A stretch of DNA of 64,000 nt from Peptoniphilus sp. (GTDB lineage Bacteria; Bacillota; Clostridia; Tissierellales; Peptoniphilaceae). The stretch's first letter is position 1; the number at the start of each line of letters is the position of its first letter. A model generated the notes under the pieces. That model was not told the origin of the DNA. It saw nothing but the letters and a program-made list of their open reading frames with translations, and did no database searches. Positions 3,353-21,495 of the stretch are shown in pieces. Position numbers and translations under genes: made by a program. The stretch lies in contig NZ_JBMNPQ010000001.1 of assembly GCF_050943655.1 (NCBI RefSeq), positions 15,238-79,237 on the forward strand. Direction: 5' to 3'.

Positions 3353-3614
3353 TGCATCAAACTCCCAAATCTATAATACTATATATGTACCTATAATTGA
3401 AGTACTAAAAGAACAATATTAACTATAAATAAAACCAAAATCGCGATTTAAATATATATTTTAAAAATGTAATTTAGCAGTTAAAAGCGTGAAATTACCT
3501 TTGTTTTAAAATATAAAATTAATGTTACTTTTTGAATAGTGATGTAACATTTTGAAACATTTGTAAAAACTAATAATATAATTTAAAACAATTCGTTAAA
3601 GTTACACTAGTTCC

Positions 3615-3643
3615 TTGAATTTAAAAAATCCCTTTGATATAAT
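3615..3643 (+). promoter_or_regulatory. Sigma-A promoter of gdh
   Basis: TTGAAT-17 nt-TATAAT, 56 nt upstream of the start codon. Confidence 0.7.
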
Positions 3644-3699
3644 AAATCTGGATGAAAAAGTTACCAATGTTTTATACATAGTAAAAGGAGAGTGTTAAA

Positions 3700-13798: not shown

Positions 13799-14593
13799 TT
13801 ATTTTACAAATTCTTGTCCCATTTCGAATAATTCGTTGGCATCTACTTTTTCACTTGCCATTATTTCATATCTGATACCATCGATATCAAATATTATGTG
13901 ATTAGTTATGCATTCTTCTCTTTCTTGAGATGATCCTCCAATTCCAACGTTAAAGAATGGGTCGTTTTCTTTTCTTTCTCTCTCTTCTGGTGTCATGTCG
14001 TCTTCACTTGCTAAAAACAAATTGTGAAGTTGGAAATAATAGAACTTAACTCCATTGTATTCTCTTATTTCTTGATACTCATTTTCGACAAGTTCTTCAT
14101 GAACTTGTTGTAATTTGTCAGTATCTAGAGTAACAATGTCATTATTTTCATTCTTGTAATCTACGCTAACAGATTTTCTCTTGTTTTGCTCATTGTTATC
14201 TTCATCTACATCAGCAAGGTCAACAATTCTAATTCCATCAAATTTGTATTCTCCAAGTTTTTCTGGAATTATTGCATCAAATCCTGCCTTTTTTTCTGCT
14301 TTTGTTGTATCTTCATATGATGTGTAGTTGTAGAATGATGATGAAGATGAAATTATTCCAGTAGATTTTCCAATGGCAAACACTCCGCCACAAAGTACAA
14401 CTGCTGCTGCAAGTACTACACCAATTTTAGATTTTTTCATTTTAAACTCTCCTCTTCCTGAATTTCTATCTAGGTTCTTTATCTCGCTGTCGATTTTGTC
14501 TTTAAGAGAATCGGAAGGGAAAGTATTTTCGACACTTCTATTTAATTCTTCTCTAAGTTTATTATCAAAACTTTGATTCCAATCTTTTTTCAT
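13799..14593 (-). CDS. Putative anti-sigma factor (single TM, DUF4367-like extracytoplasmic domain)
   Basis: Overlaps the ECF sigma gene. One TM segment (IGVVLAAAVVLCGGVFAIG). Start at 14593 follows a GGGAGG RBS. Confidence 0.7.
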   Translation of the reverse strand: MKKDWNQSFDNKLREELNRSVENTFPSDSLKDKIDSEIKNLDRNSGRGEFKMKKSKIGVVLAAAVVLCGGVFAIGKSTGIISSSSSFYNYTSYEDTTKAEKKAGFDAIIPEKLGEYKFDGIRIVDLADVDEDNNEQNKRKSVSVDYKNENNDIVTLDTDKLQQVHEELVENEYQEIREYNGVKFYYFQLHNLFLASEDDMTPEERERKENDPFFNVGIGGSSQEREECITNHIIFDIDGIRYEIMASEKVDANELFEMGQEFVK

Positions 14594-15146
14594 AAATACC
14601 CTCCCTTTCAATTAAAAAAGATTCATTTGAATGTTCTAATTCTTTTTTTAAAACTTTTCTGGCCTTAAAGAGTCTTGACTTGACTGTTCCTTCAAAAACT
14701 CCAAGGGCCGATGCAATTTCTTTTATCGTAAGATCATTGTAGTAAAAAAGAACGATGACTTCGCGCTGCTTCTTATTTAGACTCATTAGAGCATCTTGTA
14801 TTTCACTCTTAACTACAAACTCGTCTTCAATTGTATAAGTCTCTTTATCTACTTTAAGCTGAATTTCTTCATCGGGAAGTTCCCTCTTTTTATTTTTATA
14901 TTTTTTGTAAGCAGAATTTTTTAAGATCGAAAACATCCAGGGCTTTAATTTGTCGGGATCTTTTAGAGACTTAATGTTTACATAAATGGAAACGAAGGCG
15001 TCTTGAGTGACATCCTCTGCATCGTAGGAATTTCCAAGTATTAGATAAGCTGTGCGAAATAACATTAAGTAATACTTATCATAAAGCTCATCAAAAGAAT
15101 TTTTGTCGCCGGCCTTTATTCCTTCAATTATTTTGCTGCCATCCAT
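14565..15146 (-). CDS. ECF-type RNA polymerase sigma factor
   Basis: DAEDVTQDAF (region 2) and IKEIASALGVFEGTVKSRLFKAR (region 4). Start at 15146 follows a GGAGGTGG RBS. Confidence 0.92.
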   Translation of the reverse strand: MDGSKIIEGIKAGDKNSFDELYDKYYLMLFRTAYLILGNSYDAEDVTQDAFVSIYVNIKSLKDPDKLKPWMFSILKNSAYKKYKNKKRELPDEEIQLKVDKETYTIEDEFVVKSEIQDALMSLNKKQREVIVLFYYNDLTIKEIASALGVFEGTVKSRLFKARKVLKKELEHSNESFLIEREGIYEKRLESKF

Positions 15147-15175
15147 TTTTACCACCTCCATCAGATGCATCTATA

Positions 15176-15206
15176 TATAAGAGCCTTTGGGGAAGAGAAA
15201 AGTTCA
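15176..15206 (-). promoter_or_regulatory. Candidate autoregulatory ECF promoter
   Basis: Minus strand TGAACTT-16 nt-CTCTTATA directly upstream of the ECF sigma gene. Confidence 0.45.
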
Positions 15207-15269
15207 TTTATTTTAAAAATTTTTAAAAATTATGTAAAAAATAAGGTAGCCAAAGCTACCTTTAAAATT

Positions 15270-15860
15270 TTATTTATTTTCTTCTAATACATGAGAAATT
15301 GTCGCATCCCATGTTTCAAAATTCATCGCACCGACGAATCCTCCAAGAACTACGCCGTCTTTGTCGACTATTAAAGTTGTTGGAATAACTGAAACTTTTG
15401 CCATATAGTCGTCCATTGTTGGGTTTGGCATAATATTTGTGTAAGTCACACCTTTTTTGTCCAAAATATTTAATGCTTCTTCAACATTTGTGTCGAGAGT
15501 TGCATTTGTATCAGACACGACGCCCAAAAAGTTCATGTCGTTTTTGTATTTTTGGTGTAGCTTTTCAAGATCTTCCATCTCTTCTATACATGGTGTGCAA
15601 AATGTTCCCCAAATGTTTACAAATGTGAGAGGCTTCTTGCCATAAAAATCTTTTGAGTCTACCATGTCGCCAGTTTTTATATCAAGAGTTTGGAAATTAA
15701 AATCGTTAAGTCCAACATCTTGCATCTTAGTTGCCTCTGCCATATTTTCTGCATTTCCTTTATTATTTGTATTTGCTTCGTTAGTTTCATTTTTTTTGCC
15801 ACAAGAAGCAAGTGTAAGTACTAAAGTAAATGCGAGCATTATTTTTAAAAACTTTTTCAT
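15270..15860 (-). CDS. TlpA-like thioredoxin-fold lipoprotein
   Basis: Lipobox LASC, NIWGTFCTPC CxxC motif and cis-Pro IPTT motif. Confidence 0.85.
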   Translation of the reverse strand: MKKFLKIMLAFTLVLTLASCGKKNETNEANTNNKGNAENMAEATKMQDVGLNDFNFQTLDIKTGDMVDSKDFYGKKPLTFVNIWGTFCTPCIEEMEDLEKLHQKYKNDMNFLGVVSDTNATLDTNVEEALNILDKKGVTYTNIMPNPTMDDYMAKVSVIPTTLIVDKDGVVLGGFVGAMNFETWDATISHVLEENK

Positions 15861-15939
15861 ATTATCACCTTCTATTTTAGTTTAATTATACAAAAAATGC
15901 CAAGTCTTGTCTAATTAAATGAAATATTATATAATTAAC

Positions 15940-15976
15940 GATACTTGTTCGAGAACTCCAAGTATAAAAAACTAAT
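15940..15976 (+). ncRNA. preQ1 class I riboswitch aptamer
   Basis: P1 ATACTTG/CAAGTAT, loop TTCGAGAACTC and tail AAAAAACTAA match preQ1-I architecture. Preceded by TTGTCT-17-TATAAT (15907-15935) and followed by an RBS-sequestering/terminator hairpin CTCCA/TGGAG plus T-tract. Confidence 0.85.
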
Positions 15977-16006
15977 CAGTTCTCCAAATTTAATGGAGGT
16001 TTTTTT

Positions 16007-16954
16007 ATGAAAAAAATTATTATTGACGCCGATCCTGGCATTGACGATTCTATTGCAATAATGCTTGCAGCAGGTCTTTCTCACTTTGACATTTTGGGTA
16101 TAACTATAGTATCTGGAAATGTATGTGTTGATAAGGGCGCTGTAAATGCTCTTAGACTTTCAAAATTTTTAAAGAAAGATTTCAATATTTACAAATCAAA
16201 TCCAAATCCCCTTGTAAAAGAATTAATAAACGCTGAAGACACTCACGGTGAAGACGGCCTTGGCGAAACTTATCTTCCTTATGAAGATAGAGAAGTTAAG
16301 GACGGTGCAGTTGACTTTATTATAGAAAATTTAAAAAAAGATGAAGTTACAATTTTTGCACTTGGACCGCTTACAAATATTGCAAGGGCAATGGAAAAAG
16401 ATATTGACGCCTTTAAATGTGCAAGAATTATTTCTATGGGAGGAAACTTCAAATCCTTTGGAAACATGAGTCCCGTTTCAGAATTTAATTACTATGTAGA
16501 CCCAGAAGCGGCAGATTATGTAATTCAAAATTCACCGAACCCAATTGAAATAATTCCGCTAGATGTCACGAGAAAATTTGTGCTGACTCCAAATATTATA
16601 GCTCTCATGAAAAGCATTAATAAAGACGTTGCAGACTTTTTAGAAAACATCACTAATTTTTATATGGATTTTCACCTAAAATATGAAAATATAATCGGTT
16701 CAGTGATAAACGACCCACTGGTAATTATGGCACACGAATTTCCAGAATACTTTGCAAAAGAAAAATATCACGCCGATGTAGTATGTGACGGGAAAGCTCG
16801 AGGCATGCTCATGGTAGATGAAAAGGACTTTTTAAAGAAAGAGAAAAACATTATTTTATATAGAGATATAAAAACTTTCCCAGTTTGGAAAAACTTTATA
16901 GAGATACTGACAGCTGGAGAAGTGGATGAAGAGATGTTGGAGAGAATATTATGA
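16007..16954 (+). CDS. queK: Nucleoside hydrolase, queuosine hydrolase QueK-like
   Basis: DADPGIDD IU-NH motif. DTHGEDG, DVTRKFVLTPNII and FYMDFH...VINDPL resemble my recollection of C. difficile QueK. The preQ1 riboswitch context supports the assignment. Confidence 0.75.
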   Translation: MKKIIIDADPGIDDSIAIMLAAGLSHFDILGITIVSGNVCVDKGAVNALRLSKFLKKDFNIYKSNPNPLVKELINAEDTHGEDGLGETYLPYEDREVKDGAVDFIIENLKKDEVTIFALGPLTNIARAMEKDIDAFKCARIISMGGNFKSFGNMSPVSEFNYYVDPEAADYVIQNSPNPIEIIPLDVTRKFVLTPNIIALMKSINKDVADFLENITNFYMDFHLKYENIIGSVINDPLVIMAHEFPEYFAKEKYHADVVCDGKARGMLMVDEKDFLKKEKNIILYRDIKTFPVWKNFIEILTAGEVDEEMLERIL

Positions 16955-17517
16955 AAATAAATTCTAGAAAACTTACAATACTTGCAATGTGTATTGCCAT
17001 AAACCTTGTAGGTGCGTGGATTGCACTTATTTTTAAACTGCCAATTTATCTAGACTCAATTGGAACAATAATGGCGGGATTTTCCTTTGGACCTGGCTTT
17101 GGCATAATTACGGGAGTAATAACGTCCTTTGTAAACATGTTGGGCGACCCAATAGCGATATATTTTCTTCCAACTCAGTTAATAGTTGGTTACATTGCAG
17201 GAGCAGTGACAGTGCTTAAAGAAAAAAATTCCTACAAAAAAATATATCAAGCATTTATAATGTCAATCCCAGCTGCAATATCATCAGCACTAATAGCGAC
17301 ATATGTATTTGGGACGGTTACAACAGCAGGATCAAGCTATATCGTGCAGTTCTTGAGGGCGACACTTAACATGAGCGACTTCCTTATAGTATTCATCGTT
17401 CAAATAGTTACAGATTATGCCGACAAATTTATTGGAATATTTTTGGTAGCAAAGATTTATAATATGGAAGCCTTTCAAAAAATACTTGAGAGGGATAGAT
17501 ATAGACTAAAAAAATAA
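16951..17517 (+). CDS. ECF transporter S component, probably for queuosine/queuine/preQ
   Basis: PIYLDSIGT...GP..G..TG motif in a 188-aa hydrophobic protein, translationally coupled to queK under the preQ1 riboswitch. Confidence 0.8.
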   Translation: MKINSRKLTILAMCIAINLVGAWIALIFKLPIYLDSIGTIMAGFSFGPGFGIITGVITSFVNMLGDPIAIYFLPTQLIVGYIAGAVTVLKEKNSYKKIYQAFIMSIPAAISSALIATYVFGTVTTAGSSYIVQFLRATLNMSDFLIVFIVQIVTDYADKFIGIFLVAKIYNMEAFQKILERDRYRLKK

Positions 17518-17529
17518 ATATTGGATTAA

Positions 17530-17569
17530 GAGGTATGCAAGATAGATTAATTTTGCATATCTTTTTTTT
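17530..17569 (+). terminator. Terminator of the queK operon
   Basis: AGAGGTATGCAAGA...TTTTGCATATCT followed by a T-tract. Confidence 0.7.
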
Positions 17570-17644
17570 ATAAAACATCTAAATTTAAAAATAATGATTA
17601 GAATAATCTAACTTCATATTAATTATAAAATAGCGCCACAAAAT

Positions 17645-17754
17645 AAAAACTGCTTAGTTTATCAACCAAGCAGTGTCTCTAAAAATAAGAAAACCGAATC
17701 ATCGACTCGGCTTTACAAAAGGAAATTAATTAAAAAAAGTGTATTAAATAATCT
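17645..17754 (-). ncRNA. Candidate ~110-nt small RNA
   Basis: Minus-strand promoter TTGTTT-17-TAAAAT (17761-17789) and two hairpins that pair fully only on the minus strand (G-U wobbles), ending in a U-tract. No ORF. Confidence 0.4.
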
Positions 17755-17889
17755 GTTACTATTTTAGCATAATAATACAATGAAAACAAGTAAAAAATAA
17801 TTAATTATTTGCAATTTAAAAATCTAACTTTTGTCTAAATTCGTGTAATTTTAAAAAATAGAGGTATTAATTTAATTAGTAAAAAAATT

Positions 17890-17930
17890 TTAGCAGAGGA
17901 CTTGAAAGAGTGCTAATAATGATGTATAAT
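17890..17930 (+). promoter_or_regulatory. Degenerate CIRCE (HrcA operator) overlapping a sigma-A promoter
   Basis: TTAGCAGAG-N9-GAGTGCTAA at 17890-17916. TTGAAA-17-TATAAT at 17902-17930. Confidence 0.7.
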
Positions 17931-17936
17931 AATGAT

Positions 17937-17953
17937 AGTCAAAGAACGTCAAA
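17937..17953 (+). promoter_or_regulatory. CtsR-type heptad direct repeat
   Basis: AGTCAAA-GAA-CGTCAAA, close to the RGTCAAA-NAN-RGTCAAA consensus, plus an inverted TTTGAC at 17965-17970. Confidence 0.7.
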
Positions 17954-17994
17954 GTTAATTATTCTTTGACAAATAACCGTGAGGAGGAAGTTAT

Positions 17995-18903
17995 TTGAAA
18001 TACAAAGATTATTATGAAATCTTAGGTGTCTCTAAAGATGCCGATGAAAAGGAGATTAAGAGTGCCTACAGAAAGCTCGCAAAAAAATATCACCCCGACC
18101 TAAACAAAGGCGACGAGGGTGCTGCCGACAAATTCAAAGAAATTTCCGAAGCTTACGAGGTCTTATCAGACAAGGACAAGAGAAAGAAATATGATACATT
18201 TGGATCTAATTACGATTTTAGTTCCGGTTATGACTTTGATCCTTCTCAGTATGGTTATACTTACCAAACCGGAGGAAGCGGTGCAGATTTCTCTGACTTT
18301 TTTGAGACAATTTTTGGTTCATCCCATGGAGGCTCCAGGGGATTTAATATAGATGATATTTTTTCAGGCTTTTCTGGAGGTGGCGCTTCTAATAGAGCAA
18401 GACCAAAGAAGGCAAAGTTTGAATCTGAACTTTCAATTTCTATTAAAGAGGCCTACGAAGGGTGTGAAAAGAATGTAAGCCTAAGTTATGGCGGAGAAGT
18501 TTATGACATCAAAGTTAAAGTGCCAAAGGGCATCACTCGTGGAAAGAAGATAAGAGTAAGTGGCAAAAAATTCGGTATTTCTGGCGACATAATGTTTAAG
18601 ATAAAAATAAAAGACGAAAAGCACATGACTCTTGATGGATTAGATATTGAGCTTACAGAAAATATTTATCCATGGACTGCTGCTCTTGGTGGCACAAAAA
18701 CTGTCGATGCTCTCGACGGAAAGTTAAAATTAAAAATTCCAAAGAACTTCATCGGAGGAAACAAAATGAGAATTCCTTCAAGAGGATTTAAGGATTTGAA
18801 AGGAAAAGTTGGAGACTTGTATGTTAAGTTTAACATCGTAAATCCAACAAACTTAACTGAAGAACAATTAAAATTATATAAAGAGCTTAACGAAATAAGC
18901 TAA
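17995..18903 (+). CDS. cbpA: DnaJ-class co-chaperone CbpA (J domain with HPD, no zinc finger)
   Basis: KDYYEILGV...KYHPDLN, a G/F-rich linker and a DnaJ C-terminal domain. TTG start after GAGGAGG. Confidence 0.8.
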
Positions 18904-18915
18904 AGAGGTGTTAAT

Positions 18916-21495
18916 ATGAATTTTGAAAAATTTACTCAAAAATCACTAGAGGCAGTGCAAGGTGCATACAACACTGCTAAAGAGTATGGAAACCCTGAGG
19001 TTAAAGAAATTCACGTAAATTATGCACTTTTAAATGACAGCGAAGGACTTATTCCTAGGGTTTTAACCTATATGGACAAAAATCCTGAAATGATTAAGGC
19101 GGATGTATTAAAAGTTATTGAAAGACTTCCAAAACAATCTGGCTCAAGTTTATATGCCGACGAATCTTATAGAAAAGTTTTTCAAAAAGCTGAAGAGTTT
19201 AAGGAAAAACTAGGCGATGAATATTTATCTGTTGAGCATATTTATTTGGCGCTAATTGCAACTAAGGGAACTGATTCTGCATCTGTTTTTAACAGATTTT
19301 CTATAGATTTAGATTCATTTTTAAAGGCCCTTCAAAAAATTAGGGGCAATCAACATGTCACTACAGATAATCCTGAAGGAACATACGACGCCCTTAAAAA
19401 ATATGGAGAGGACCTTACAGAACTTGCCCGCGACGGCAAACTTGACCCAGTAATTGGTCGTGACGAAGAAGTTAGAAATGTTATAAGAATTCTTTCAAGA
19501 AGGACAAAGAATAACCCAGTTTTAATCGGGCCTCCAGGAGTTGGTAAAACAGCAATTGCAGGAGGACTTGCCCAAAGAATTGTATCAGAAGATGTGCCCG
19601 ATGGACTTAAAAACAAAACAGTCTTCTCCCTTGACATGGGAGCACTAGTTGCTGGTGCAAAGTATAGAGGTGAGTTCGAAGAGAGACTTAAAGCCGTTCT
19701 AAACGAAATTAAAAAATCTGAAGGCGACATTATTCTTTTCATAGACGAAATTCACAACATCGTCGGAGCAGGCAAGACTGACGGCGCAATGGACGCATCA
19801 AACTTACTAAAACCTATGCTTGCTCGTGGCGAACTTCACGCAATTGGTGCAACAACTCTTGATGAATATAGAAAGTATATCGAAAAGGACCCAGCACTTG
19901 AGAGAAGATTCCAAAAAGTTTTGGTAACTGAGCCAACTGTGGAAGACACAATTGCAATTCTTCGTGGACTAAAAGATAAATACGAAATCTATCACGGAAT
20001 TAGAATTTCAGACTCTGCAGTAATTGCTGCAGCAACTTTATCTGATAGATATATTACAGATAGATACTTGCCAGATAAGGCAATTGACTTGATGGATGAG
20101 TCCTGTGCAATGCTTAGGACAGAAATCGACTCAATGCCTACAGAAATCGACGAAGTTAGAAGAAAAATTCTTCAACTAGAAATCGAAAATGAGGCTCTTA
20201 AAAAAGAAACTGACGAGGCAAGTAAAGTAAGACTTGAAAAGCTTCAAAAAGAACTTTCAGAAGAAAAGGCCGAGTACGACAGATTAAAATCTAAATGGGA
20301 AACTGAAAAGAAAGGCCTTGACTCATTAAAGGACATCAAAAAACAAATTGAAGATGTAAACCACGAAATAGAAGAAGCTGAAAGAAATTACAATCTTGAA
20401 AAACTTTCTGAATTAAAATACGGAACTCTTCCAAAATTAAAAGAAGAGCTTGCCGAAAAAGAAAAAGGCGTAAAAGACGGCTCATCAATGGTAAAAGAAG
20501 AAGTTACAGAAGATGAAATTGCCTATGTAGTTAGCCGCTGGACAGGAATACCTGTAGAAAAATTAAACGAAAGCGAAAGAGATAAACTTCTAAGCCTTGA
20601 AGATATTTTACACAAGAGAGTTGTTGGTCAAGACGAGGCAATTGAAGTTGTATCTGATGCCGTATTAAGAGCAAGGGCAGGACTTAAGGACAAAAATAAA
20701 CCAATTGGCTCCTTCATATTCCTAGGACCAACTGGTGTTGGTAAGACAGAAACTGCCAAGGCACTTACTGAGGCACTTTTCGATGACGAGAGAAATATGA
20801 TAAGAATAGATATGTCTGAATATATGGAAAAACACTCCGTATCTAGACTTGTTGGTTCTCCTCCAGGATATGTTGGATACGACGAAGGTGGACAACTAAC
20901 AGAAGCAGTTAGGAGAAAACCATATAGCGTAATACTATTTGACGAAATCGAAAAGGCTCATCCTGATGTATTTAACATTTTGCTTCAAGTGCTAGATGAC
21001 GGACGACTTACAGACAACCAAGGAAGAACTGTGGACTTTAAAAACACAGTCATCATCATGACATCAAATATTGGATCACATTATCTAATTGATGGAATAA
21101 GCGAAAGTGGAGAGATACTTGAATCAGCTCGTGAAAATGTAATGAGAGATTTGAGAATGGAATTTAGACCAGAATTTTTAAATAGAGTTGACGAGACAGT
21201 TCTATTTAAACCACTTGGAAGATCTGAAATATTTGAAATCATAAAACAAAGCGTTCGCGAAGTTGAAGATAAACTTAGAGATAGAAATATTAAAATTGAA
21301 ATCACAGACTCTGCTCTTGAATTCATACTAGAATCTTCCTTCAACGCACAATATGGCGCTCGTCCAGTTAAGAGATTTATTGGACACAGCTTAGAGACTG
21401 ACCTTTCTAAGATGCTAATTAAAGGCGACATAACAGATGGAGATACAATAGAAGTAGATAGCCTTGCAGGTAAGCTAACTGTAAATAAGAAATAA
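18916..21495 (+). CDS. clpB: ATP-dependent disaggregase ClpB
   Basis: Two AAA+ modules ([16 protein letters not shown]) and a long coiled-coil middle domain, 859 aa. Confidence 0.95.

What the first reader, a model, noticed from the sequence alone, without database searches (positions are those of the whole stretch)
15907..17569. preQ1-riboswitch queuosine salvage operon without an adjacent queL
Seen: promoter, preQ1-I aptamer and expression hairpin (GTTCTC at 15979 can alternatively pair with GAGAAC in the aptamer loop), then a QueK-like hydrolase, an ECF S component and a terminator. Established: in C. difficile the analogous operon includes the radical-SAM queuine lyase QueL, which converts queuine to preQ1 for a bacterial TGT. 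Inference: this organism either encodes queL elsewhere or inserts queuine directly with a TGT of altered specificity. In the latter case the riboswitch might sense a different ligand.
Basis: partly seen in the sequence, partly recalled or inferred. Interest (0 to 1): 0.55.

Follow-up and report, generated by a model that had tools for sequence, protein, structure and literature searches.

The report
Queuosine salvage operon; queL elsewhere
This is an ordinary riboswitch-controlled operon for scavenging the tRNA nutrient queuosine, and the "missing" lyase gene queL sits intact on another contig beside a normal set of downstream enzymes, so the known Clostridioides difficile-type pathway explains it.

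Summary
Window 15907-17573 carries a promoter, a preQ1-I (type I) aptamer, a hairpin that sequesters the ribosome-binding site, a QueK-like nucleoside hydrolase, a QrtT-like ECF S component and a terminator.

The exciting inference does not hold. A full-length queL lies at G000:C106:2927-3607 (-). It is 54-61% identical to the third gene of riboswitch-queK-qrtT-queL operons in other Firmicutes, and it keeps every invariant residue, including the CxxxxCxxC cysteines.

The genome also has:
- a canonical bacterial tgt (DEC and GGLSVGE, with the valine kept);
- queA;
- queH;
- an ECF T component.

No convincing queC, queF or queG was found. This is the published indirect queuine salvage route: Q -> q -> preQ1 -> tRNA -> oQ -> Q.

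The aptamer core is nearly identical to those in front of complete queK-qrtT-queL operons, so nothing points to a changed ligand.

The split gene order recurs in a same-genus genome, two Peptoniphilus genomes, one more genome of the family and Clostridium perfringens.

The real "QueK without QueL" puzzle exists in Streptococcus and is already published. It does not apply here. Interest is low.

Minor open points are the queL start codon and the loop/anti-SD pairing of the expression platform.

The parts
15907..15935 (+). sigma-70-type promoter-like site (TTGTCT, 17 nt, TATAAT). The predicted transcript start falls at the 5' edge of the aptamer.
   Evidence: 10 of 12 matches. The position is inferred and was not tested.
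15938..15981 (+). preQ1-I riboswitch aptamer, type I. P1 is 15943-15947 paired with 15959-15963 and can extend to 15941/15965. UU at 15948-15949 follows the 5' strand. UC at 15957-15958 precedes the 3' strand. The tail is AUAAAAAACUAAUC, 15964-15977.
   Evidence: Type I criteria are taken from the review read.
15951..15984 (+). Proposed anti-sequestor pairing: loop GAGAAC (15951-15956) with GUUCUC (15979-15984). It excludes both the folded aptamer and the SD hairpin.
   Evidence: Sequence. The forced alternative fold is -7.9 kcal/mol against an MFE of -10.8. The same GUUCUCC...GGAGG arrangement occurs in L031, L032, L050 and L052, and with a G-U wobble in L024, L025 and L083. This is an inference.
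15981..15999 (+). SD-sequestering hairpin (UCUCCA / UGGAGG). It contains the ribosome-binding site GGAGG at 15995-15999, 7 nt before the ATG at 16007.
   Evidence: It is conserved in the Peptoniphilus leaders L024 and L025, which lack the following T run.
16007..16954 (+). queK: queuosine hydrolase-like member of the inosine-uridine nucleoside hydrolase family, 315 aa.
   Evidence: PF01156 at 260.9 bits. The DxDxxxDD motif and other invariant residues are kept. It is 37-67% identical to the hydrolases of the 80 related loci, 73 of which have a QrtT-like gene downstream and 32 a queL as well.
16951..17517 (+). qrtT-like substrate-specific (S) component of an ECF transporter, 188 aa. Its start overlaps the queK stop (ATGA).
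   Evidence: PF12822 at 49.1 bits. NCBIfam CD3073 family at 67 bits, below the cut-off. It is 33-67% identical to the S component found downstream of queK in 73 of 80 loci. An ECF T component is present at C22:8472-9134.
17528..17573 (+). Intrinsic terminator-like hairpin followed by a T run, ending the two-gene operon.

Best explanation
This is the uptake and hydrolysis half of the indirect queuine salvage pathway first described in Clostridioides difficile. It is carried by a Peptoniphilus-like Firmicute that cannot make preQ1 itself.

Proposed pathway:
1. The ECF transporter, using the QrtT S component, imports queuosine, queuine or preQ1.
2. QueK cleaves queuosine to the queuine base.
3. 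The radical-SAM lyase QueL, encoded separately at G000:C106:2927-3607, converts queuine to preQ1.
4. A canonical bacterial TGT inserts preQ1 into tRNA.
5. QueA and QueH finish the modification to Q.

Proposed regulation: a class I, type I preQ1 aptamer at the 5' end of the queK-qrtT mRNA senses preQ1, the product of the pathway. With ligand bound, the aptamer folds. That frees GUUCUCC to pair with the GGAGG ribosome-binding site, and translation is shut off. Without ligand, the loop GAGAAC can pair with GUUCUC and keep the ribosome-binding site open.

Shown here: presence and intactness of all the genes, the aptamer signature, and the conservation of the arrangement. Inferred: enzyme activities, transporter substrate, ligand binding and the switching mechanism.
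For: Operon parts.

queL elsewhere:
- tblastn with 34 QueL ORFs taken from queK-qrtT-queL loci gives a full-length hit at 54-61% identity, E down to 3e-93.
- All 64 invariant columns are kept, including C41/C46/C49 of the CxxxxCxxC motif.
- There are weak radical-SAM and RaSEA-like profile matches.

Other pathway genes:
- tgt: 584 bits to PF01702 and TIGR00430 at 582 bits, with FDEC and GGLSVGE. It matches bacterial TGT structures at 462 bits and human QTRT1 at 365 bits.
- The q-type motif GG[LS][AS]G versus E. coli GGLAVG comes from the paper read.
- queA: 485 bits.
- queH: 224 bits.
- ecfT.

No de novo route: queC gives only hits at 22-24 bits, barely over Pfam's 22-bit cut-off and covering part of the profile, which I take for other ATP-pyrophosphatase-type enzymes. 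queF gives 20 bits, below the cut-off.

The published C. difficile operon is preQ1-I riboswitch-queK-qrtT-queL.

The aptamer is nearly identical to those in front of complete operons, and P1 covaries.

The same split arrangement is found in same-genus G035, in family genome G042, in the genomes of L024 and L025 (Peptoniphilus) and in C. perfringens.
Against: - The aptamer is below Rfam's gathering score (34.4 against 39).
- QueL was identified through synteny-defined orthologues, not by direct comparison with CD1684, whose sequence I could not obtain.
- queL has no clean canonical start. The codon aligned with Met1 of other QueLs is ATC, preceded by AGGTGG. The only in-frame ATG lies 18 codons upstream and has no ribosome-binding site.
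- queL carries no detectable riboswitch, but the contig ends 24 nt upstream of that ATG.
- The genome is 92% complete, so the absences of queC, queF and queG are not proven.
- No activity or ligand binding was measured.
Confidence: 0.9

Rival explanations
1. Direct queuine salvage: TGT has shifted specificity and inserts queuine itself, as in Chlamydia trachomatis, so queL is not needed and the riboswitch may sense another ligand.
For: The only support is the lack of queL next to queK-qrtT. TGT has Ser at the Ala232-equivalent position (GGLSVGE), a residue that also occurs in q-type motifs.
Against: The valine and the DEC cysteine that mark preQ1-type enzymes are kept. The q-type motif is GG[LS][AS]G. 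queA and queH are present, and known direct salvagers lack them. An intact queL exists. The aptamer core equals those of full queK-qrtT-queL operons.
Confidence: 0.03
2. queL on C106 is not expressed or is decaying because its start codon is lost. The organism would then release queuine with no known fate, like Streptococcus, or rely on imported preQ1 only.
For: The codon at the conserved Met1 position is ATC. The upstream in-frame ATG lacks a ribosome-binding site and overlaps a divergent gene start. Streptococcus has QueK but no QueL, and the fate of the released queuine there is unknown.
Against: The 227-codon frame is open and keeps every invariant residue. The same-genus copy is 79% identical and has ATT at the same position after an AAAGGAG ribosome-binding site. 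That pattern suggests a conserved unusual start or a short N-terminal extension rather than decay.
Confidence: 0.05
3. The hydrolase is a general nucleoside hydrolase (RihA/RihC-like) with a vitamin-type ECF S component, and the riboswitch match is chance.
For: The best NCBIfam hits are RihC and RihA, all far below their cut-offs. The aptamer is below the gathering score.
Against: The aptamer is the only credible RF00522 hit in the genome (E 2e-5). By regex it precedes the orthologous gene in 60 of 80 loci, and its P1 helix covaries. The hydrolase-S component pair is conserved, and 32 of 80 loci also carry queL.
Confidence: 0.02

Closest known systems
Clostridioides difficile CD1682-CD1684 (queK-qrtT-queL) operon with a preQ1-I riboswitch: indirect queuine salvage (Yuan et al. 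2019, as described in PMC11130926 and PMC11477304)
   Same: It has the same riboswitch class in the same position and the same queK then qrtT order. The same downstream enzymes are present in the genome: queL, a preQ1-type tgt, queA and queH. De novo preQ1 genes are likewise not found.
   Different: queL is not the third gene of the operon. It lies on another contig with no detectable riboswitch, so only uptake and hydrolysis are under preQ1 feedback. queL also has an unusual start region.
preQ1-I type I riboswitches (Carnobacterium antarcticum, Haemophilus influenzae, Neisseria gonorrhoeae; PMC11625349, PMC8752633, PMC10018353)
   Same: It shares the UU after the 5' strand of P1, the UC before the 3' strand, the A-rich tail with the conserved C, and translational control.
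   Different: The tail ends CUAAUC rather than CUAAGG, so the ribosome-binding site is not part of the aptamer. A separate hairpin 14 nt downstream sequesters it. The aptamer loop itself may serve as the competing strand.
Streptococcus queK-transporter loci without queL (bioRxiv 10.1101/2025.10.13.681863)
   Same: A preQ1 aptamer motif precedes queK plus an ECF S component, with no adjacent queL and a canonical TGT.
   Different: Those genomes have no QueL anywhere, which one search confirmed for S. equinus. This genome has one.
Chlamydia trachomatis direct queuine salvage (q-specific TGT plus QPTR)
   Same: Both salvage a host- or diet-derived Q precursor.
   Different: Chlamydia has a q-type TGT motif and lacks queA and queG/H. 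Here TGT is preQ1-type and queA and queH are present.

Membership tests
preQ1-I riboswitch (RF00522), type I | Match to the Rfam covariance model at or above the gathering score (39 bits) | tested here: not met
   34.4 bits. E is still 2e-5 genome-wide, and it is the only credible hit.
preQ1-I riboswitch (RF00522), type I | 5-bp P1 helix supported by covariation, with an A-rich 3' tail containing ACUA | tested here: met
   95% of cells paired, 4 of 5 pairs with compensatory changes, and 0 of 500 shuffles reaching the observed covariation score. The tail is invariant in 25 sequences.
preQ1-I riboswitch (RF00522), type I | Type I signature: UU after the 5' strand of P1 and UC (the specificity cytosine) before the 3' strand | tested here: met
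   UU at 15948-15949 and UC at 15957-15958. The criterion comes from PMC11625349.
preQ1-I riboswitch (RF00522), type I | Binds preQ1 (two molecules for type I) and represses the downstream gene | not testable with these tools
   Needs ITC, in-line probing and a reporter assay.
QueK (queuosine hydrolase subgroup of IU nucleoside hydrolases) | IU_nuc_hydro fold with the N-terminal DxDxxxDD calcium-binding motif | tested here: met
   PF01156 at 260.9 bits. D7, D9, D13 and D14 are invariant.
QueK (queuosine hydrolase subgroup of IU nucleoside hydrolases) | Orthology to the hydrolase of riboswitch-queK-qrtT-queL operons, judged by gene neighbourhood | tested here: met
   It is 37-67% identical to the hydrolases of the 80 related loci. 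A QrtT-like gene lies downstream in 73 of 80 loci, queL is adjacent in 32 of 80, and the aptamer is upstream in 60 of 80.
QueK (queuosine hydrolase subgroup of IU nucleoside hydrolases) | Hydrolyses queuosine to queuine | not testable with these tools
   Needs an enzyme assay.
QrtT (ECF S component for Q precursors) | PF12822 S component encoded next to queK, with a shared ECF module in the genome | tested here: met
   PF12822 at 49.1 bits, adjacency and EcfT at C22. The NCBIfam CD3073-family cut-off is not reached: 67 against 180 bits.
QueL (radical-SAM queuine lyase) | Full-length orthologue of the third gene of queK-qrtT-queL operons, with the cluster cysteines conserved | tested here: met
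   G000:C106:2927-3607, 54-61% identity over 226-231 aligned residues. The CxxxxCxxC motif and all invariant columns are kept.
QueL (radical-SAM queuine lyase) | Direct sequence comparison with the characterised CD1684 | not tested
   No reference sequence was available.
QueL (radical-SAM queuine lyase) | Pfam Radical_SAM at the gathering score | tested here: not met
   22.4 bits against 29.5. The motif is CxxxxCxxC rather than CxxxCxxC in all 12 aligned QueLs, so the family as a whole fits the general model poorly.
Bacterial preQ1-type TGT | Tgt equivalog match, with the DEC cysteine and a valine in GGL[AS]VGE | tested here: met
   TIGR00430 at 582 bits. FDEC and GGLSVGE are present.
Direct queuine salvage (Chlamydia type) | TGT pocket GG[LS][AS]G, and absence of queA and queG/queH | tested here: not met
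   TGT has GGLSVGE. queA and queH are present.

The most novel reading that the evidence does not exclude
The expression platform may be a distinct design for type I preQ1-I riboswitches. The aptamer's own loop (GAGAAC) would act as the competitor strand for a downstream GUUCUCC anti-SD element. Ligand-induced compaction of a 34-nt pseudoknot would then be relayed to a ribosome-binding site lying outside the aptamer. In this genus the switch also gates only import and hydrolysis, while queL, which has a conserved non-AUG (AUC/AUU) start or a short N-terminal extension, is expressed independently.
Probability: 0.3. Interest if true: 0.3.

Novelty: new member of a known kind. Interest (0 to 1): 0.12.

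Why it matters
It matters little beyond annotation. The result shows that a Peptoniphilus-like gut or skin anaerobe has the complete C. difficile-type indirect queuine salvage route. It also shows that queL need not be linked to queK-qrtT, so genome surveys should search the whole genome before calling QueL absent.

It belongs to Streptococcus and some lactobacilli and is already in the literature.

Tried and rejected
- A Pfam Radical_SAM search of the genome listed 19 radical-SAM genes. NCBIfam named most of them (MoaA, MiaB, MtaB, RimO, HemW, HemZ, BioB, HydE, HydG, RlmN, NrdG, a SCIFF maturase, two MnmL/YtqA and others). None was QueL. QueL is too divergent for that model and was found only by tblastn with synteny-derived queries.
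- My first regex for CxxxCxxC in neighbouring ORFs found nothing, because QueL has CxxxxCxxC.
- The radical-SAM gene just downstream of queA-tgt-yajC on C57 looked promising, but it is a SCIFF peptide maturase.
- No riboswitch was found near queL or tgt, nor near queL in relatives.
- No queL remnant was found in the gap after qrtT, and there was no Rfam hit there.
- The primary paper, Yuan et al. 2019, is not held.
- The earlier-findings look-up returned nothing relevant.
- QueT (PF06177) and YhhQ/QPTR (PF02592) were not searched.

Full report
**Observation**

- A promoter-like site, TTGTCT-17-TATAAT, lies at 15907-15935.
- It is followed by a match to the preQ1-I aptamer model RF00522 at 15938-15981.
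- The match scores 34.4 bits, under Rfam's gathering score of 39, so the default scan of the window found nothing.
- It is nevertheless the only credible RF00522 hit in the whole 1.67 Mb assembly, with E = 2e-5. The next best hits have E of 0.3 to 0.9.
- The sequence shows P1 (15943-15947 with 15959-15963), UU after its 5' strand, UC before its 3' strand, and the tail AUAAAAAACUAAUC.
- According to the review read, UU plus UC is the signature of class I, type I aptamers. These bind two stacked preQ1 molecules, and the C of UC is the specificity base.

**Evidence that the aptamer is real**

I fetched 80 loci encoding relatives of the hydrolase.
- A simple regex finds the same motif upstream of the hydrolase in 60 of them.
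- On a 25-sequence alignment the loop and tail are almost invariant.
- P1 is 95% paired, with compensatory changes in 4 of 5 pairs. None of 500 shuffles reaches the observed covariation score, and every slid register collapses to 33-46% paired.

**Expression platform**

- GUUCUC overlaps the CUCC anti-SD arm of a hairpin (15981-15999) that buries the GGAGG ribosome-binding site, 7 nt before the ATG at 16007.
- The predicted minimum-energy fold has P1 plus this hairpin at -10.8 kcal/mol.
- Forcing the GAGAAC:GUUCUC helix gives -7.9 kcal/mol, so both states are accessible.
- The two Peptoniphilus leaders (L024, L025) keep GUUCUCC...GGAGG but lack the T run after it. I therefore read the hairpin as a translational sequester rather than a terminator.
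- The same GUUCUCC...GGAGG element, with a perfectly complementary loop, recurs in Peptacetobacter, Romboutsia and Niameybacter leaders.
- The switching mechanism is an inference.

**Genes of the operon**

- ORF 16007-16954 is an inosine-uridine nucleoside hydrolase: PF01156 at 260.9 bits, with the DxDxxxDD motif.
- ORF 16951-17517 overlaps it by ATGA and is an ECF S component: PF12822 at 49.1 bits.
- The closest named homologues are from Peptoniphilus, at 64-67% identity.
- A homologue of the S component lies downstream of the hydrolase in 73 of the 80 related loci, directly after it in nearly all.
- In 32 of the 80 loci a 229-aa protein with a PCxWGKCxFCDY motif follows.
- This three-gene order behind a preQ1-I riboswitch is the one published for C. 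difficile queK-qrtT-queL. It occurs in the same family, Peptostreptococcaceae: Peptacetobacter L032 and Romboutsia L050.
- A terminator follows at 17528-17565.

**The missing queL**

- No radical-SAM gene found through Pfam is QueL.
- tblastn with the 34 synteny-defined QueL ORFs gives one strong, full-length hit at G000:C106:2927-3607 on the minus strand. It is 54-61% identical, with E down to 3e-93.
- Aligned with 11 QueLs, it keeps all 64 invariant columns, including the three cluster cysteines.
- Profile searches give only weak radical-SAM (22.4 bits) and RaSEA-like (47 bits) matches, and no QueL or QueK model matched in NCBIfam.
- The operon sits 31 kb inside the 89.7-kb contig C1, so queL is truly unlinked.
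- The gap after qrtT holds no queL remnant.

**Rest of the pathway**

- queA and tgt are adjacent on C57.
- TGT matches the bacterial Tgt equivalog at 582 bits.
- It aligns better with bacterial TGT structures (462 bits) than with human QTRT1 (365 bits).
- It has FDEC and GGLSVGE.
- The paper read gives GG[LS][AS]G as the pocket of queuine-inserting TGTs and GGLAVG for E. coli. Here the valine is kept.
- From my own knowledge of the Zymomonas TGT mutagenesis work, Val233 and Cys158 are the residues whose replacement opens the pocket for queuine.
- queH is present at 224 bits.
- queG was not found.
- queC and queF give only marginal hits: 22-24 bits against Pfam's 22-bit cut-off over part of the QueC profile, and 20 bits, below the cut-off, for QueF. 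I take these to be other enzymes.
- An ECF T component is present, along with several other S components.
- The genome is 92% complete, so the absences are not proven.
- Having queA and queH makes sense only if preQ1 is what TGT inserts.

**How general the split arrangement is**

Among 61 sampled genomes of the family, 14 have QueL and 9 have a hydrolase match at E <= 1e-40. The arrangements found are:
- queK-qrtT-queL (G015, G019);
- qrtT-queL without queK (G010, G023, G056, G058);
- queL alone with queK-qrtT elsewhere (the same-genus genome G035, and G042).

The genomes behind L024 (a Peptoniphilus MAG), L025 (P. ovalis) and L029 (C. perfringens) also carry an unlinked queL. S. equinus and Ligilactobacillus hayakitensis have none. 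That last case matches a published statement that Streptococcus has QueK, a canonical Tgt and QueA but no QueL, with the fate of queuine unknown.

**Verdict**

- This is a new instance of a known pathway with a different gene order.

**Open points**

- The queL start is unclear. ATC follows an AGGTGG ribosome-binding site at the conserved Met1 position, and the same-genus genome has ATT there. Alternatively, translation starts at an ATG 18 codons upstream that has no ribosome-binding site.
- Whether the aptamer loop truly acts as the anti-sequestor is untested.
QueL identity therefore rests on synteny-defined orthologues rather than on CD1684 itself.

Noticed in passing
G000:C106 (L104) 3596-3685, minus strand: queL has no clean start. 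The codon aligned with Met1 of other QueLs is ATC, 7 nt after AGGTGG. The only in-frame ATG is 18 codons upstream, lacks a ribosome-binding site and overlaps the ATG of a divergent gene (TCATGA palindrome). The same-genus genome has ATT at the same position after AAAGGAG, plus an in-frame ATG 9 codons upstream. This may be a conserved non-AUG start or a short genus-specific N-terminal extension.
   Followed up: partly
L117 (G023:C1:416686-420366) compared with window 16951-21495: In another genus of the family the order is qrtT-queL-cbpA(dnaJ-like)-clpB on one strand. The window has queK-qrtT, then a 478-bp AT-rich gap, then cbpA-clpB. This suggests queL once sat in that gap and moved or was replaced. 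No remnant is detectable.
   Followed up: partly
L055 (Streptococcus equinus) and L038 (Ligilactobacillus hayakitensis) genomes: Both have the preQ1 aptamer motif (regex), then queK and an S component, but no QueL anywhere at E <= 1e-5 with a 12-sequence profile. This matches the unresolved 'QueK without QueL' case published for Streptococcus and extends it to a lactobacillus.
   Followed up: partly
L117, L119, L120, L121 (family genomes G023, G010, G058, G056): These carry qrtT-queL pairs without any queK in the genome at E <= 1e-40. Such organisms would salvage the queuine base but not the nucleoside. In total, 9 of the 14 QueL-positive genomes sampled lack a QueK match.
   Followed up: no
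window 17649-17714, minus strand: Two strong terminator-like hairpins on the minus strand lie in the ORF-free gap between qrtT and the dnaJ-like gene, with no minus-strand gene upstream of them. There is no Rfam match. They may be bidirectional terminators or relics.
   Followed up: partly
L032, L050, L052 leaders (about 110 nt between aptamer and start codon): In Peptostreptococcaceae and Niameybacter, the preQ1-I aptamer is followed by two extra hairpins, one of them terminator-like, before the same GUUCUCC...GGAGG sequester. This is a longer and possibly dual transcriptional/translational platform.
   Followed up: no
G000:C2:50115-50996 and G000:C65:5771-6931: Two Elp3/MiaB-type radical-SAM proteins (288 and 387 aa) reach no NCBIfam cut-off; their best hit is a weak MnmL/YtqA match. 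The genome also has two full MnmL/YtqA paralogues (C10, C32).
   Followed up: no
window 13799-15860, minus strand: Divergent from the operon are a TlpA/ResA-like thiol-disulfide oxidoreductase lipoprotein, an ECF sigma factor and a 270-aa ORF with no family match that overlaps the sigma gene, possibly its anti-sigma factor. The redoxin gene is also the upstream neighbour of queK in both Peptoniphilus loci.
   Followed up: no
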